From positions 40,100-104,099 of the IMG/VR virus record IMGVR_UViG_3300035212_002004: a stretch of 64,000 nucleotides of DNA, one strand, 5' to 3'. The stretch comes from a virus (lineage: Duplodnaviria; Heunggongvirae; Uroviricota; Caudoviricetes). A program made the position numbers and the translations under genes. Below the pieces are notes generated by a model, which saw nothing but the letters and a program-made list of their open reading frames with translations, did no database searches and was not told the DNA's origin. Of the stretch, positions 1,052 to 12,138 are shown one piece after another (the stretch's first letter is position 1; every line of letters begins with the position of its first letter).

Positions 1052-1237
1052 TTATTTTTTAAATTTCTTTTCTTTTATTTCAACAAATCCTTCTAATGTA
1101 AGATTTTCTCCTATACATTTCCCTTCTGTGTTATAAAAATAAATTGGAATACCTGTGATGTTTGTTTCTATAAATTGTTGACTCTTTACAAGTTCTCCTG
1201 TATTTGAATTCTTATAAAATTTATTAACTACTTTCAT
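1052..1237 (-). CDS. Hypothetical protein
   Basis: 61 aa ORF directly downstream of a promoter-like element, same strand as neighbours. Confidence 0.6.
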   Translation of the reverse strand: MKVVNKFYKNSNTGELVKSQQFIETNITGIPIYFYNTEGKCIGENLTLEGFVEIKEKKFKK

Positions 1238-1318
1238 AACCTTTTTATTTGTTTCTAATACTTAAATATACAAAAAAAGACTTGAATAAACAAGCCTTTT
1301 ATCAATTATTTTTAAAAA

Positions 1319-1514
1319 AATTTAACACCTCAGTTGCACTCTGGTTTGTAATGGGGCTACTATGGGAAATCCTGAATTCGTCGTGTTCGTCACAGGCGTA
1401 CTAGTCCTTATCTTCCTTTGAACTTAATCGATTACAATTGGCGAGGTTTACCACTATCAACACGCCTATTCTGTTTCATGTGTTGGTTACAGACAACCAT
1501 CGAGGTGTTAAATT
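1319..1514 (-). ncRNA. Candidate structured ncRNA (~195 nt)
   Basis: Perfect 13-bp terminal inverted repeat AATTTAACACCTC/GAGGTGTTAAATT; internal stems AGGCGT/ACGCCT and GGTT..AACC; GC-richer intergenic stretch with no credible ORF. Confidence 0.5.
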
Positions 1515-3828: not shown

Positions 3829-4284
3829 TTAATCTATTTTTAAAGTAAGTATAATATAATCTGCCCATCCCATTTCATGTCCTTCTATATAGAAGTCGTC
3901 TTCTGGAAAGTAATGAGATAAGTCTGTATCCCATAACTGATCATATATTCCTTGCTTAAAGGTATCCATATCTGTTGGATAGATTTTAGGTACCATGCAT
4001 TCTAATTTTTCTGAGAGGTATTTTTTAGCAAGTTCATCATTTAGAGTTTTGTAAACTTCAAATGCTTCTTTACTATCGTCATTACCACCATTCCATTTGT
4101 AGGTTTTTAGCAATGCTTGTGATATCTGTTCATGTCTTTGTTTATCTTGTTCAGATATCTCTACAATGGTATGTGTTTTTAGAGCATCTGTAGATAGAGT
4201 TGGGAGAAATCTTCTAGTAATATATTCTCCTACGTAAAGTCCTAGCTGGTAGTTTAAGTCTTTTACATCAGGATCTCTTCTCAT
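3829..4284 (-). CDS. Hypothetical protein
   Basis: 151 aa ORF immediately downstream of the last tRNA. Confidence 0.75.
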   Translation of the reverse strand: MRRDPDVKDLNYQLGLYVGEYITRRFLPTLSTDALKTHTIVEISEQDKQRHEQISQALLKTYKWNGGNDDSKEAFEVYKTLNDELAKKYLSEKLECMVPKIYPTDMDTFKQGIYDQLWDTDLSHYFPEDDFYIEGHEMGWADYIILTLKID

Positions 4285-5927: not shown

Positions 5928-6626
5928 CTAATATCCAACTATTTTGTTAGATTTTTTTAAATTATCTTTTTTCCACAATGGTTGATAATTACTATAATGA
6001 TTTAATCTTACAATATCTTCCTCTGTTTGAGCTGAAGAGATTGGTATTTTATGATCTAATTCCCATTGACCATAATTGTAAATAGTCATACCTTCTTGAA
6101 ATAAGTTCTGAATATGTTCTGTAAATTCTAATAGAGTGCATCCTAGTATTTCTTCAGTTCCTATACTTTTTCTATAAGTACCATTGCAGCTCCTTTTGAA
6201 TGAACCTCCTATTAAACTTCTTGTATTATATATTAATTTATAAATTGGATCTACTTTTTTTCGTTCCCTATGATAATTTACATAATATCCAGGATTCCTT
6301 TCATTCCAACTACTCTTTTTCTCTCTAGGTTTTTTAATAACCTCTTTTTTAGGTCTAGGATGAGTTTTATAGTACTCTCTTTGCCTTAACTTTATCTCCT
6401 CTTTATTTTGTTGGTAATTTAACCTATCTCTTTCTCTTTGCTTATCCCTATTAGCATCTCTATACTCTTCTCCATATTTTTGTAGAGATTCTTTATTATC
6501 CTCTTTCCATCTTGCAGTTTCTATTTTTCTACAAGCTCTGCAGGTATAGTCGTAGTTATTAAATACAGATTTTGATATGTTAATTCCTACTTCTAATTCT
6601 ACTTTACACTTTATACACTCTTTCAT
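5928..6626 (-). CDS. HNH-type putative homing endonuclease
   Basis: N-terminal CxxC..CxxC; C-terminal GCT..F..HI...GMT..NYG.WELDHKIP...NYQPLW..DN..KSNK; paralogue of 18754-19425 and 54541-55089. Confidence 0.85.
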   Translation of the reverse strand: MKECIKCKVELEVGINISKSVFNNYDYTCRACRKIETARWKEDNKESLQKYGEEYRDANRDKQRERDRLNYQQNKEEIKLRQREYYKTHPRPKKEVIKKPREKKSSWNERNPGYYVNYHRERKKVDPIYKLIYNTRSLIGGSFKRSCNGTYRKSIGTEEILGCTLLEFTEHIQNLFQEGMTIYNYGQWELDHKIPISSAQTEEDIVRLNHYSNYQPLWKKDNLKKSNKIVGY

Positions 6627-6763: not shown

Positions 6764-7270
6764 TTAAAAGAATAGGAAAGCTTCCCATTCCTTAGGTACA
6801 TAGTTTAAGGTTTTTAAGAGCATTAGGTAATGAGGTCTTTTTGGTTCTGGAATTTCCTTTCCATATTCCTCAAGAGTTAAATCTGCTTTAGCTCCATTAC
6901 AAGATCTACATGCTGTTACTAAATTGTCCCAAGCATTTTCTCCACCTTTTGATTGTGGAATGACATGGTCAAGTGTTAATGACTTTATGTTACTTGATCC
7001 GCAATAAACACATTCATAATTATCCCTTCGATAAACATTTTCTCTCGTTAGAGGAACTTTTTGAATGTTTTGTTTTACATATTTAAAAACCCTAATGATT
7101 GAAGGTTTAAAAATTTCTAGTTTTGGATTTACTAATCCGAATGTTTCTGGATGTTCAGCTATTATTTCTGCATTACCCTTATACGAAATCACGAAAGCTC
7201 TTTCGGTAGAGATGATGCTTCTTGCCATAAAGCTTGAATCAATTACCAGTGTTCTTTGGTACTTACTCAT
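6764..7270 (-). CDS. HNH endonuclease (McrA-like), inside the tRNA array
   Basis: RENVYRRDNYECVYCG...LTLDHVIPQSKGG...NLVTACRSCNGAK; likely start MSKYQR at 7270 (ORF track starts at 7294). Confidence 0.88.
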   Translation of the reverse strand: MSKYQRTLVIDSSFMARSIISTERAFVISYKGNAEIIAEHPETFGLVNPKLEIFKPSIIRVFKYVKQNIQKVPLTRENVYRRDNYECVYCGSSNIKSLTLDHVIPQSKGGENAWDNLVTACRSCNGAKADLTLEEYGKEIPEPKRPHYLMLLKTLNYVPKEWEAFLFF

Positions 7271-7303
7271 GATTTTAATTTTTAAATGAAACAATTTATT
7301 TTG

Positions 7304-8003: not shown

Positions 8004-8008
8004 AATTA

Positions 8009-8073
8009 AAAGTAACGTAGGACTCGAACCTACTCATGCCAAGTTAATAGCAATTATCCACCATGCATTACTT
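8009..8073 (-). ncRNA. Degenerate tRNA-like RNA
   Basis: 7-bp acceptor AAGTAAT/GTTACTT and canonical T-arm GTAGG-TTCGAGT-CCTAC; anticodon stem TGCTA/TGGCA closes a 6-nt loop TTAACT; no clear D-arm. Confidence 0.55.
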
Positions 8074-8076
8074 TTG

Positions 8077-8237: not shown

Positions 8238-8359
8238 AATTTGTAACGTTTAATCTGATAACCTTACGAAGAGTTGTTCCTTATTAATCCAATTGTAATG
8301 TTAGTTGTTGGAGGGAAAGTTACACATCTAAACCCGTCAGGAGATACTAACACCCCTTG

Positions 8360-8431
8360 CTCCTCCCCTAGGACTCGAACCTAGATAAGATGATTAACAG
8401 TCATCCGTAATAACCTTTATACGAGAGAGGA
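8360..8431 (-). tRNA. tRNA-Asn (GTT)
   Basis: GATGA-CTGTTAA-TCATC arm, G73. Confidence 0.92.
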
Positions 8432-8437
8432 ATTTTG

Positions 8438-8606
8438 AGCCACATAACAGGAATCGAACCTGTCTGCTGAATCTTGTCAAATACTCTCATCTTGTCGACC
8501 TTTCAGAGGCATATTCTATTTAACCCTTTATGATCTTCCACCCTACGTCTAGGACAGTCCATACATAATTGACTAAAAGATCCAGTCGTCACCGTTGACT
8601 ATGGAC
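8438..8606 (-). ncRNA. tRNA-shaped RNA with a ~100-nt insertion in the anticodon loop
   Basis: D-stem GTC/GAC, anticodon-type stem GGATCTT/AAGATTC, 5-nt variable loop, canonical T-arm ACAGG-TTCGATT-CCTGT, bulged acceptor, 3' N73-CA like neighbouring tRNAs. Confidence 0.65.
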
Positions 8607-8770: not shown

Positions 8771-8816
8771 AATTACACTTTCCAATTAAATCTGTATAAG
8801 TGTGAAACCCTCTTCG

Positions 8817-8887
8817 TACCTCGTAGTGGAATCGAACCACTGCCATTTCCATGTAAAAGAAATACGCTTCCATTACGCCAACGAGGC
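8817..8887 (-). tRNA. tRNA-Val (TAC)
   Basis: TTTCT-TTTACAT-GGAAA arm, canonical T-arm. Confidence 0.9.
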
Positions 8888-9226: not shown

Positions 9227-9667
9227 CTATTTTAAATTATGTTTTATTTTTAATCTATGGACTCTATTGTAATTATCACCTTTTGGAGATAAACCAGCAT
9301 CTCTTAATATGTCAGCTATACTTCCTCCTTTTTTTATAGATTCAATTAATACATCTTCATGCACCCATTTAGTATGGGTTTCTTTTTTATAGTTTTTAGA
9401 TCTAAAAGTTGATGTTTGTGAATGACAATTAGGACACATATATCTTAAATTCCCTCTAGTATTATTATGTTTATCACCATCTATATGGTCTAATTCTAAT
9501 AAAAGAGGTTTTTCATTCCATTCTTCTAATATTCCACATTCTACACATTTAGGTTCTCCTAACCATTTATCTTTTTTTAACCAGTCTCTAAAAGCAGGAA
9601 CAAATGTTATTGTCATTTCCCCATTTAATATTTTTTCAATATTATTTTTAATATCAGTACGTTTCAT
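9227..9667 (-). CDS. HNH endonuclease inside the tRNA array
   Basis: CVECG...LELDHIDGDKHNN...NLRYMCPNCHSQT; likely start MKRTDIK at 9667 after an ATATTTAT motif (the ORF-track start at 9751 lies inside tRNA-Ser). Confidence 0.88.
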   Translation of the reverse strand: MKRTDIKNNIEKILNGEMTITFVPAFRDWLKKDKWLGEPKCVECGILEEWNEKPLLLELDHIDGDKHNNTRGNLRYMCPNCHSQTSTFRSKNYKKETHTKWVHEDVLIESIKKGGSIADILRDAGLSPKGDNYNRVHRLKIKHNLK

Positions 9668-9726
9668 ATAATATATTTGATAATAAATATTACATCGTCT
9701 TAAAGACTTAAACATACTTTTAATAG

Positions 9727-9810
9727 AAGAGAGTGTGGGACTCGAACCCACAACGGTTTAACCCGCTACGACTTTTCAAGAGTCGCTCTTGATCCAGCCA
9801 GATACTCTCC
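9727..9810 (-). tRNA. tRNA-Ser (TGA)
   Basis: CGACT-CTTGAAA-AGTCG arm, long variable arm GCGGGTTAAACCGT. Confidence 0.9.
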
Positions 9811-9898
9811 ATCTTATTCTATCCAATATGTCAATGAACTACTTATTTTTCTTATGCTTCAATATACGAACCCTTTTTACGGTATCCAAATCTTTTGT

Positions 9899-10436: not shown

Positions 10437-10535
10437 AGCTAAGGCCGGACTCGAACCGGATACCGTTTCATTTAAAACGGACTAGACAACCATTTGACTG
10501 GATTCGGAAACCATTCCTCATTACGCCCACTTAGC
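10437..10535 (-). ncRNA. tRNA-like RNA (99 nt) without a canonical anticodon arm
   Basis: Acceptor GCTAAG/CTTAGC, T-arm CCGG-TTCGAGT-CCGG, three small internal hairpins. Confidence 0.6.
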
Positions 10536-10540
10536 TTTTT

Positions 10541-10627
10541 GGAATCGGTGAGGGATTCGAACCCTCATCTGGACTTACCGTCCATGTTAACCCTAGCAGG
10601 TATGCTCCTGTTGACACCAACCGATTC
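10541..10627 (-). ncRNA. tRNA-like RNA (87 nt), 8-bp acceptor, long variable arm, poorly paired anticodon arm
   Basis: GAATCGGT/ACCGATTC, T-arm GAGGG-TTCGAAT-CCCTC, variable arm TGGAC-GGTAA-GTCCA, CT-GCT-AG loop without a proper stem. Confidence 0.6.
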
Positions 10628-10794: not shown

Positions 10795-10899
10795 TAGTCA
10801 GGACAGGAATCGAACCTGTATACCTCGTTTATCTGTTGGAACGAGTACTCCCAATGGTTGCGACCCATACACTGCGTTTCCCATTTTCGCCACCTGACT
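10795..10899 (-). ncRNA. tRNA-like RNA (105 nt) with extended anticodon and variable arms
   Basis: AGTCAGG/CCTGACT acceptor, A73, D-stem GCG/CGC, ATGG-GTCGCAA-CCAT hairpin, CTCGTT/AACGAG arm, canonical T-arm. Confidence 0.65.
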
Positions 10900-11312: not shown

Positions 11313-11710
11313 TAAAAACTTACTGTTGAAAGTACTTTAATAATAGTAAATTCAGGATCAAAATCTTTGTCTAATTGTTTTGCAACTAATAAATCGATTG
11401 ATGTTCCGTTTTTTTGCTCAACCCATAACTCTTTTACAAATTCTGAAGATGTTACTTCATTTTTGTCGTTTCTTCCTACTGTAAATACAGCTACTTTTAC
11501 TTGTTTGCTCATGTTTTTTATTGGTGTTACGGCTGTTGATAAGCCTAAATTATTTGAATAATTAATTGTTGAATTTCCTGATAGGGTTAATCCTGAATTG
11601 GGGTGGGATACTGTAAGTATTGAGTTAGGATTAGTACATCCCATTCCTATTGTTCCTGAGTATCCAACTGTTGTTCCGGTTGTTCCTAGCCAACTTTGTG
11701 TTTCGTTCAT
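11312..11710 (-). CDS. Hypothetical protein
   Basis: 132 aa ORF overlapping its neighbours by 1-4 nt. Confidence 0.7.
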   Translation of the reverse strand: MNETQSWLGTTGTTVGYSGTIGMGCTNPNSILTVSHPNSGLTLSGNSTINYSNNLGLSTAVTPIKNMSKQVKVAVFTVGRNDKNEVTSSEFVKELWVEQKNGTSIDLLVAKQLDKDFDPEFTIIKVLSTVSF

Positions 11711-12138
11711 AATTTTAGATAATCTTTTAAATTAATATTTTGTGTTTTTTCTTGATAATGAAAATCTGTATGGCAATTTCTACAAAGCACTTTACATTTC
11801 CGTATTTCAGTTTTAATAATATTTAAAGTGTAAGTTTTAAAATATGGTAAAGCATGTTCTTTAGTATCAGGATCTATATGGTGAAAATCTAAAACCCAAA
11901 ATCTTTTTTCTCCACATTTTTGGCACCCACAATACTTTTTGTACCTATTCATAAATTCTTGACCTCTATTATAACTCTTTTTACTAGCCTTTATTTGATA
12001 CTTTTTATAAACATCACTATTAGCTTTATTATGTATAGCATTATAAGAATGTTGACATAATTTACATTTACCTCCACCTTTATAAAAATCGGTTAATGGT
12101 TTAGTTTCATTACAAGAAGGGCATTTTTTATTATTCAT
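11707..12138 (-). CDS. HNH-type putative homing endonuclease
   Basis: CPSC..CKLC zinc ribbon; CGCQKCG...LDFHHIDP...KCKVLCRNCH. Confidence 0.82.
   Translation of the reverse strand: MNNKKCPSCNETKPLTDFYKGGGKCKLCQHSYNAIHNKANSDVYKKYQIKASKKSYNRGQEFMNRYKKYCGCQKCGEKRFWVLDFHHIDPDTKEHALPYFKTYTLNIIKTEIRKCKVLCRNCHTDFHYQEKTQNINLKDYLKL

What the first reader, a model, noticed from the sequence alone, without database searches (positions are those of the whole stretch)
8438..8606. tRNA scaffold whose anticodon loop is replaced by a ~100-nt structured domain
Seen: D-stem, a 7-bp anticodon-type stem (GGATCTT/AAGATTC), 5-nt variable loop, canonical T-arm and an N73-CA end like its neighbours, but 169 nt long. 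The insert has hairpins (AGTC..GACT, CCTA-GACG-TAGG) and two extra AAGAT copies that could pair with the same 5' strand, suggesting a switch. Removing 8575-8478 (98 nt, cut after U34, ending in G) would restore a TT-TAC-AA Val loop. That is the splice geometry of the cyanobacterial tRNA-Leu(UAA) group I intron, but 98 nt is far shorter than known group I introns, and an intact Val(TAC) already exists at 8817. Inference: a mini-intron, a miniature tmRNA-like RNA or a tRNA-mimic ncRNA.
Basis: partly seen in the sequence, partly recalled or inferred. Interest (0 to 1): 0.78.

Follow-up and report, generated by a model that had tools for sequence, protein, structure and literature searches.

The report
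Phage tRNA frame carrying conserved cargo
A freshwater phage keeps, among its ordinary tRNA genes, a 170-base RNA with the outer shape of a tRNA whose decoding loop is replaced by a conserved folded domain; it is shared with other large phages, is most likely not spliced, and matches no family in Rfam 15 or the papers searched, although tRNA-shaped phage RNAs of unknown role are a known kind.

Summary
Real, on the minus strand (8606-8437), inside the tRNA array of a complete 168-kb phage related to Flavobacterium phage immuto. Full-length homologues lie in 19 other loci (13 distinct sequences with the window), always in tRNA arrays. All eight helices vary in ways that keep pairing (13 of 50 pairs with double changes, 7 of them from one divergent copy). 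The 101-nt cargo is a three-way junction and is better conserved than the frame (87% against 33-64% in the most divergent copy). The mini-intron idea fails: no U-G at the 5' site, terminal G not kept, no group I match, poor product with U73, ordinary tRNA-Val present, and RNA-library contigs are unspliced. The AGTC/GACT hairpin and the switch are not conserved. Best reading: an accessory, non-decoding tRNA-framed RNA whose cargo binds a partner; function untested. Closest precedent: T4 RNA C/D. The scan has noted this class in other phage genomes, but not this family.

The parts
8437..8606 (-). Whole tRNA-framed RNA gene (G1 to U73-C74; CCA would have to be completed after transcription)
8600..8606 (-). 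Acceptor 5' strand (7 nt)
   Evidence: pairs with 8446-8439; A-U to G-C change in 5 homologues, further double changes in L092
8588..8599 (-). D-like hairpin (3-4 bp) placed directly after the acceptor strand; loop with invariant GGU
   Evidence: 100% paired, one double change
8577..8585 (-). P2 5' strand: extended 9-bp 'anticodon' helix
   Evidence: 97% paired, 4 pairs with double changes
8571..8576 (-).
   Evidence: pairs with 8525-8520; C-G to U-A in 5 homologues
8559..8567 (-). P4 5' side (repeated UAUG; two registers possible with 8533-8529)
   Evidence: register A 98%, register B 100% paired
8538..8557 (-). P5 hairpin, 7-8 bp, invariant GACG loop at 8549-8546
   Evidence: inner 7 bp 100% paired, three pair types at several positions
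8520..8533 (-). 3' strands of P4 (8533-8529) and P3 (8525-8520)
8479..8516 (-). P6 side arm: 6-bp stem (8516-8511 with 8484-8479) closing a 26-nt region (8510-8485) with 20 of 26 columns invariant, including GUCGAC and GAUGAGA
   Evidence: stem 100% paired with one double change; invariance count
8467..8478 (-). 3-nt junction (8478-8476) and P2 3' strand (8475-8467)
8447..8466 (-). 3-nt connector (8466-8464) and T arm (8463-8447) with loop UUCGAUH
   Evidence: T stem 100% paired, 2 pairs with double changes
8437..8446 (-). Acceptor 3' strand with one bulged base, discriminator U73 (8438) and C74 (8437)
   Evidence: U73-C74 in 13 of 13; bulge absent in L092 and L099
8613..8686 (-). Upstream neighbour tRNA-Phe(GAA) (context)
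   Evidence: same neighbour in most homologous arrays
8359..8431 (-). Downstream neighbour tRNA-Asn(GUU) (context)
8816..8887 (-). Ordinary tRNA-Val(UAC) with A73 (context: makes a spliced Val redundant)
9861..9870 (-). Promoter-like motif TTCGTATATT upstream of the array (inferred source of the polycistronic transcript)
   Evidence: 43 copies in the genome, all on one strand; position

Best explanation
An accessory, unspliced, non-decoding RNA. SHOWN: a conserved tRNA-like frame (7+5-bp acceptor/T branch, D-loop GG, T-loop UUCGA, U73-C74) carries in place of the anticodon loop a 101-nt three-way-junction domain; the frame is conserved in shape and the cargo in sequence. INFERRED from established tRNA processing: it is co-transcribed with the array, cut out at its 5' end by host RNase P, trimmed and CCA-completed by host enzymes (the phage encodes none that I found), and the frame gives it clean ends and stability. 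INFERRED, weakest step: the invariant unpaired bases of the cargo (GACG loop, AUA and GAC junctions, P6 loop) form a binding surface, so the RNA works as a two-ended adaptor or decoy, one end read as tRNA by host factors and the other gripping one specific protein. I put about 80% on 'unspliced and non-decoding', about 60% on the whole statement, and only about 25% on the narrower guess that the partner belongs to host defence or RNA turnover (suggested by its patchy, accessory-gene distribution).
For: 19 other full-length loci, 13 distinct sequences, all in tRNA arrays. 97.4% of cells paired, 13 of 50 pairs with double changes, against 38-44% paired when partners are slid; RNAalifold recovers nearly the same structure unaided. 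Window against L092: cargo 87% identical, frame segments 33-64%; 62 of 101 cargo columns invariant against 31 of 68 frame columns. All 20 amino acids already have ordinary tRNAs. Contigs of close homologues in 3 of 4 RNA libraries cover the element unspliced and no joint skips the cargo; one 160-nt contig covers 8438-8597. Absent from 8 syntenic arrays that span the Phe-Asn interval, present in differently ordered arrays of larger phages. Precedent: T4 RNA C and D.
Against: No direct data on ends, processing, charging or partner. RNA evidence is from assembled contigs, may include DNA, and would miss a ~75-nt spliced product. Sequences are close (91% mean column identity) and 7 of the 13 double-change pairs come from L092 alone; the shuffle control ignores relatedness. 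The model is not the minimum-energy fold of the single sequence (-24.8 against -39.3 kcal/mol; z 0.20). The invariant loops give no covariation, so their structure and role are untested. No partner gene was identified.
Confidence: 0.6

Rival explanations
1. A tmRNA-like RNA or mimic of tmRNA's tRNA-like domain: it binds SmpB or the ribosome and either rescues stalled ribosomes with a very short tag or titrates host trans-translation.
For: Same geometry as E. coli tmRNA's tRNA-like domain: 14-nt against 13-nt D region, long helix in the anticodon position, 3-nt connector. A 5-codon ATG..TAG frame is present in all 13 copies. The phage has no tmRNA of its own.
Against: No G3-U70 and no A73; connector is CAG/UAG/UGG, not GAC; RF00023 does not hit the element; the short frame lies in helices and changes mostly non-synonymously, and the longer frame loses its stop or shifts in two homologues; no phage SmpB.
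Confidence: 0.12
2. A Y-RNA-like partner of Ro60 in non-permuted form: the cargo presents a Ro60 site and the tRNA end engages a nuclease.
For: Invariant GUCGA resembles the first five bases of the YrlA motif GNCGAAN(0-1)G and vertebrate GGUCCGA (PMC4201824) and could pair with UUGAC in 11 of 13 copies; the phage carrying L092 encodes a TROVE protein about 10 kb away.
Against: The sixth base is C in all copies, so the motif is not met; topology is not the YrlA permutation; RF02553 finds nothing; no TROVE gene in the complete window genome or in G044, G045, G046 (incomplete records), while G016 has TROVE but lacks the RNA; the alternative pairing competes with P6, which is intact in 13 of 13.
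Confidence: 0.1
3. A tRNA-Val(UAC) gene with a 98-nt intron removed by self-splicing or by an unknown enzyme.
For: The cut gives a 7-nt loop with UAC in 12 of 13 copies; terminal G in 12 of 13; product scores as tRNA-Val at lowered ARAGORN thresholds in 6-9 of 13.
Against: 5'-site U pairs with invariant A, not G; terminal base is A in L082; UAU in L092; no call at default threshold; U73, no U8/A9, 3-nt connector; no RF00028 match; no RtcB; ordinary Val(UAC) in the same arrays; RNA contigs unspliced.
Confidence: 0.06
4. A conformational switch in which the 5' strand of P2 or of the acceptor changes partner.
For: Second AAGAT copy can pair in 11 of 13; the window has a perfect internal partner for the acceptor strand.
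Against: First copy fully paired in 4 of 13, internal acceptor partner in 4 of 13; when the 5' strand changes in L092 only the true partner follows.
Confidence: 0.05
5. A decaying tRNA pseudogene or neutral processing spacer.
For: Patchy distribution; weak predicted stability.
Against: Length constant within 1-2 nt, pairing kept in all helices and cargo far better conserved than the frame.
Confidence: 0.04

Closest known systems
Bacteriophage T4 species 1 and 2 RNAs (rnaC 139 nt, rnaD 119 nt; NC_000866.4 70908-71171)
   Same: Small non-decoding RNAs encoded in a phage tRNA cluster; RNA C ends in a T arm with UUCGAAU loop followed by a 7-nt strand, U and A-C-A; roles unknown (PMC3014915, PMC9697503).
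   Different: No sequence or model match beyond the T arm (16 bits against 171-209); different internal fold; this RNA has a covarying D-like hairpin, a 9-bp anticodon-position helix and a three-way-junction cargo.
tmRNA (RF00023), tRNA-like domain
   Same: Acceptor plus T arm, 13-14-nt D region, long helix instead of an anticodon arm, 3-nt connector, cargo inserted in the anticodon position.
   Different: 170 against 363 nt; no G3-U70/A73; connector not GAC; has a short D stem; no pseudoknot ring or credible tag frame; no RF00023 hit.
YrlA-type bacterial and phage Y RNAs (RF02553; PMC4201824)
   Same: tRNA-like elbow joined to a long arm; a GNCGA pentamer; proposed adaptor logic.
   Different: Not circularly permuted, motif incomplete and internal, no adjacent or co-distributed Ro60, no RF02553 hit.
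Group I introns in tRNA anticodon loops (RF00028; cyanobacterial tRNA-Leu(UAA) type)
   Same: Insertion in the anticodon position; an AAGAUGAGAGU stretch loosely recalls J8/7-P7 (from memory).
   Different: 98 nt, no catalytic core, no U-G pair, terminal G not invariant, no valid tRNA product.
Engineered tRNA-scaffold expression constructs (from memory)
   Same: Foreign structured RNA in place of the anticodon loop, processed and protected by the tRNA frame.
   Different: Natural, with a non-canonical frame under its own structural selection.

Membership tests
Group I intron in tRNA | U-G wobble at the 5' splice site in P1 | tested here: not met
   U8576 pairs with an invariant A in P3 in 13 of 13
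Group I intron in tRNA | Invariant terminal G | tested here: not met
   G in 12, A in L082
Group I intron in tRNA | P3-P7 catalytic core | tested here: not met
   No RF00028 match in region or genome; P7-like pairing intact in 4 of 13
Group I intron in tRNA | Ligated exons form a valid tRNA | tested here: not met
   0 of 13 at default ARAGORN; U73, no U8/A9; anticodon UAU in L092
Group I intron in tRNA | Spliced product exists in vivo | tested here: inconclusive
   No joint in 4 RNA libraries, but contigs only and short RNAs are lost
tmRNA | tRNA-like domain with extended helix and 3-nt connector | tested here: met
tmRNA | Alanine identity (G3-U70, A73) | tested here: not met
   C3-G or U3-A, U73 in 13 of 13
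tmRNA | Conserved tag reading frame in single-stranded context | tested here: not met
   Short frames lie in helices or are broken in homologues; no RF00023 or default ARAGORN hit
tmRNA | SmpB binding and trans-translation | not testable with these tools
   No phage SmpB; host SmpB binding needs an experiment
YrlA / Y RNA | GNCGAAN(0-1)G motif near the 5' end | tested here: not met
   GUCGAC, internal, in 13 of 13
YrlA / Y RNA | Permuted tRNA module with closed acceptor stem | tested here: not met
   Ends lie in the acceptor stem; no RF02553 hit
YrlA / Y RNA | Encoded within about 4 kb of Ro60 | tested here: not met
   No TROVE in G000; 10 kb away in G048; none found in three incomplete carriers
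Decoding tRNA (RF00005) | 7-nt anticodon loop on a 5-bp stem, U8/A9 linker | tested here: not met
   No RF00005 or ARAGORN call; anatomy
T4 RNA C/D kind (non-decoding stable RNA of a phage tRNA cluster) | Encoded in the tRNA cluster with tRNA-like 3' end | tested here: met
T4 RNA C/D kind (non-decoding stable RNA of a phage tRNA cluster) | Accumulates as a discrete stable RNA | tested here: inconclusive
   Homologues in RNA libraries; one 160-nt contig confined to the element; contigs cannot show ends
T4 RNA C/D kind (non-decoding stable RNA of a phage tRNA cluster) | Homology to rnaC or rnaD | tested here: not met
   T-arm-level score only

The most novel reading that the evidence does not exclude
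The RNA is a minimal tmRNA-shaped effector with non-alanine identity (G1-C72, U73): it is charged or left uncharged by the host, docks on SmpB or the ribosome, and its conserved three-way-junction cargo changes host ribosome rescue or disarms a tRNA-targeting defence; it would be the first assigned function for the widespread tRNA-framed RNAs of phage arrays.
Probability: 0.12. Interest if true: 0.85.

Novelty: new variant of a known kind. Interest (0 to 1): 0.5.

Why it matters
Phage tRNA clusters have been known for decades to hold stable RNAs of unknown role (T4 RNA C and D). This is a compact (170 nt), well-delimited family with a comparative structure model and a sharp split between a shape-conserved frame and a sequence-conserved cargo, so it is small enough to synthesise, probe, solve and use as bait. 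It is invisible to ARAGORN and Rfam. The limits: no cultured phage was found to carry it, the host is only inferred, the function is untested, and the scan has already noted several other tRNA-framed phage RNAs, so the general idea is not unique to this locus.

Tried and rejected
Rfam at gathering and at E<=10: only a T-arm fragment hit to beta-tmRNA, E 5.7. ARAGORN intron and tmRNA modes: nothing at default; lowered thresholds give genome-wide noise. Plus-strand fold: meaningless, wrong strand. Cultured phages: blastn finds only the neighbouring Asn tRNA or chance 24-mers; the 41-kb region of phage immuto with its four annotated tRNAs has no copy (rest of that genome covered by blastn only). 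Bacterial and archaeal genomes: 4 pattern hits, none confirmed by the model; pattern search is not exhaustive. Further viral patterns gave no new members, only chance hits in coding DNA; one search found nothing. GTTAAATA/TATTTGAC, the helix suggested by single-sequence folding, is broken in 4 of 13 and was replaced by P3 and P6. Resemblances to pistol, hammerhead, group II domain V, T-box double T-loop and HIV-type palindromic kissing loop were considered from memory; none fits all copies, and the kissing options (GAC/GUC, GUCGAC palindrome) involve invariant bases only and cannot be tested by covariation. No antisense target in the phage genome (best 12-nt matches). No RtcB, TROVE, SmpB or CCA-adding enzyme in the genome; the T4 RNA ligase 1 search was uninformative because the control never rang. 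RNA run X16 does not cover the element: no conclusion. Literature searches found no description; the 10,006 candidate viral RNAs of PMC10690425 could not be checked because no supplement is held, so prior listing there is not excluded.

Full report
Setting. The window is part of a complete 168,099-bp phage genome with terminal repeats, 31.6% G+C in the window. The nearest cultured relative by the DpdA-like protein is Flavobacterium phage immuto at 34% identity, so a Bacteroidota host is inferred, not shown. DNA holders are lake, freshwater and estuary metagenomes. The element lies on the minus strand in a tRNA array, between tRNA-Phe(GAA) and tRNA-Asn(GUU). ARAGORN tRNAs at default, adds Thr, Ser(GCU), Lys and Gln at a lower threshold, and Tyr, Trp and a third CAU tRNA can be read from the sequence; all 20 amino acids are covered, including an ordinary Val(UAC) with A73. 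Neither ARAGORN nor Rfam 15 recognises the element.

Observation. The tRNA-like ends, T arm, GGATCTT/AAGATTC pairing, CCTA-GACG-TAGG hairpin and the 98-nt arithmetic are all in the sequence. Single-sequence folding is uninformative (z 0.20), so I looked for homologues. Exact-pattern scans on different parts of the element converged on one small set: 19 other full-length loci, 13 distinct sequences with the window, found by nhmmer from the window copy at E 1e-22 to 1e-45. All lie in tRNA arrays, most directly after tRNA-Phe, two after tRNA-Asn; carriers include 164-234-kb contigs with different tRNA orders. It is absent from eight syntenic arrays of relatives that span the Phe-Asn interval (L003, L009, L010, L014/15, L020, L024, L030, L049) and from the four near-complete related genomes searched. 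The cargo was never found outside the tRNA frame.

Structure. The alignment supports eight helices: a 7-bp acceptor (one bulge in 11 of 13 copies), a 3-4-bp D-like hairpin starting directly after it, a 2-purine linker, a 9-bp helix P2 in the anticodon position, then a three-way junction of P2, P3 (6 bp, leading through P4 to the P5 hairpin with an invariant GACG loop) and P6 (6 bp, closing a 26-nt region), then a 3-nt connector, a T arm, and U73-C74. 97.4% of cells pair; 13 of 50 pairs show double changes, spread over every helix; sliding the partners drops pairing to 38-44%. RNAalifold finds almost the same structure on its own. Caveats: the sequences are close, 7 of the 13 double changes come from L092 alone, P4 has two possible registers, and the model is not the minimum-energy fold.

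Frame against cargo. Between the window and L092 the cargo is 87% identical while the frame segments are 33-64% identical yet still pair; 62 of 101 cargo columns and 20 of 26 columns closed by P6 are invariant. The frame is therefore selected for shape and the cargo for sequence. D-loop GG and T-loop UUCGA are invariant, so the tRNA elbow can probably form (inference from tRNA structure).

Intron test. The proposed 5' site falls inside P3, its U pairs with an invariant A; the last base is A in L082; the restored anticodon would be UAU in L092; ARAGORN calls none of the 13 ligated products at default; they would have U73, no U8/A9 and a 3-nt connector. No group I model matches; 98 nt is about half the length of the smallest self-splicing group I introns I know (from memory). 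No RtcB is encoded. Arrays that carry the element generally carry an ordinary Val(UAC). In three of four RNA libraries, contigs of close homologues cover the cargo and its junctions without a joint; one is a 160-nt contig spanning 8438-8597. That is weak evidence (contigs, possible DNA, short RNAs lost), but it points the same way. The UU-UAC-AA loop is a by-product of the two U-A pairs that close P2.

tmRNA and Y RNA tests. E. coli tmRNA has a 13-nt D region, an extended helix and a GAC connector; this RNA has 14 nt, 9 bp and CAG/UAG/UGG. The geometry is alike, but alanine identity and a credible tag frame are missing, and RF00023 does not hit it. The invariant GUCGAC is one base off the YrlA Ro60 motif (PMC4201824), the topology is not permuted, RF02553 is negative, and Ro60 is not co-distributed.

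How it most likely works. Transcription with the array from the TTCGTATATT-type motif at 9870-9861 (43 copies, one strand; inferred promoter); release by host RNase P and 3' trimming with CCA completion, as for neighbours that also encode only N73-C (inferred; no phage CCA enzyme); a stable, anticodon-less RNA whose long arm presents invariant loops to one partner. I favour an adaptor or decoy role toward a host protein, because the distribution is that of an accessory gene and the conservation pattern is that of a binding surface; this last step has no direct evidence.

Comparison and novelty. T4 RNA C and D are small RNAs of a phage tRNA cluster with unknown roles (PMC3014915, PMC9697503); RNA C has a tRNA-like T arm and 3' end but no homology to this family. 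I found no description of this family in Rfam 15 or the papers searched, but could not check the 10,006 candidates of PMC10690425. Related arrays hold at least two further classes of tRNA-framed RNAs, and earlier notes of this scan describe such RNAs in other phage genomes, with no look-alike of this sequence. Verdict: real, conserved, undescribed family of a known but unexplained kind; new variant; interest 0.5.

Noticed in passing
window 10795-10899 (-); L003 11669, L004 13901 and 14155, L012 7803, L023 12652, L024 13077, L035 3731, L048 8559, L058 1426, L102: A second class of tRNA-framed RNA with constant AGUCAGG/CCUGACU acceptor, normal D arm and T arm, but a hypervariable middle (total 95-235 nt) at the head of the array.
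   Followed up: partly
L014/L015 16337-16480, L030 15835-15985, L094 about 1228-1383 (-), L099 about 3895-4037 (-): A third class (141-152 nt; GCUCGUA acceptor, enlarged D region, GUUAAU/AUUAAC helix, 3-nt connector) with two alternative cargo sequences; occurs in the same arrays as the element in L094 and L099.
   Followed up: partly
window 10437-10627 (-): Two more tRNA-like RNAs with T arms and rebuilt middles; order and content differ in L002 and L003.
   Followed up: no
window 8008-8074 (-); L020 14230-14320: A 67-nt mini tRNA-like RNA (acceptor, one internal helix, T arm, no D arm) with a close homologue in L020.
   Followed up: no
window 8238-8358 (-): Structured-looking spacer between Asn and Ile tRNAs, also covered by contigs in all four RNA libraries and present in L100.
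   Followed up: no
L010 14659-14730, L015 15821-15890, L030 15460-15532, L049 15065-15136: A tRNA at one fixed position between Val and Tyr whose called anticodon differs between relatives (Ser, Pro, Leu, Phe) and whose acceptor is imperfect, preceded by a conserved structured leader.
   Followed up: no
L009 14973-15045, L010 14989-15061, L024 14277-14349: The first of two tandem 'Asn' tRNAs has an atypical anticodon loop (UUGUUAG) and T loop (UUCGAAA preceded by GAGA/GGGA-U) in several relatives.
   Followed up: no
G000 whole genome; window 9861-9870: Motif TTCGTATATT occurs 43 times, all on the minus strand: likely phage promoter.
   Followed up: partly
G016:94975-95724, G048:41592-41825: Ro60/TROVE genes in two related phages, about a kilobase to 10 kb from their tRNA arrays; not in the window's genome.
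   Followed up: partly
window 5928-6626, 6764-7294, 9227-9751, 11707-12138 (-): Four HNH or endonuclease VII-type genes in and beside the tRNA array.
   Followed up: no
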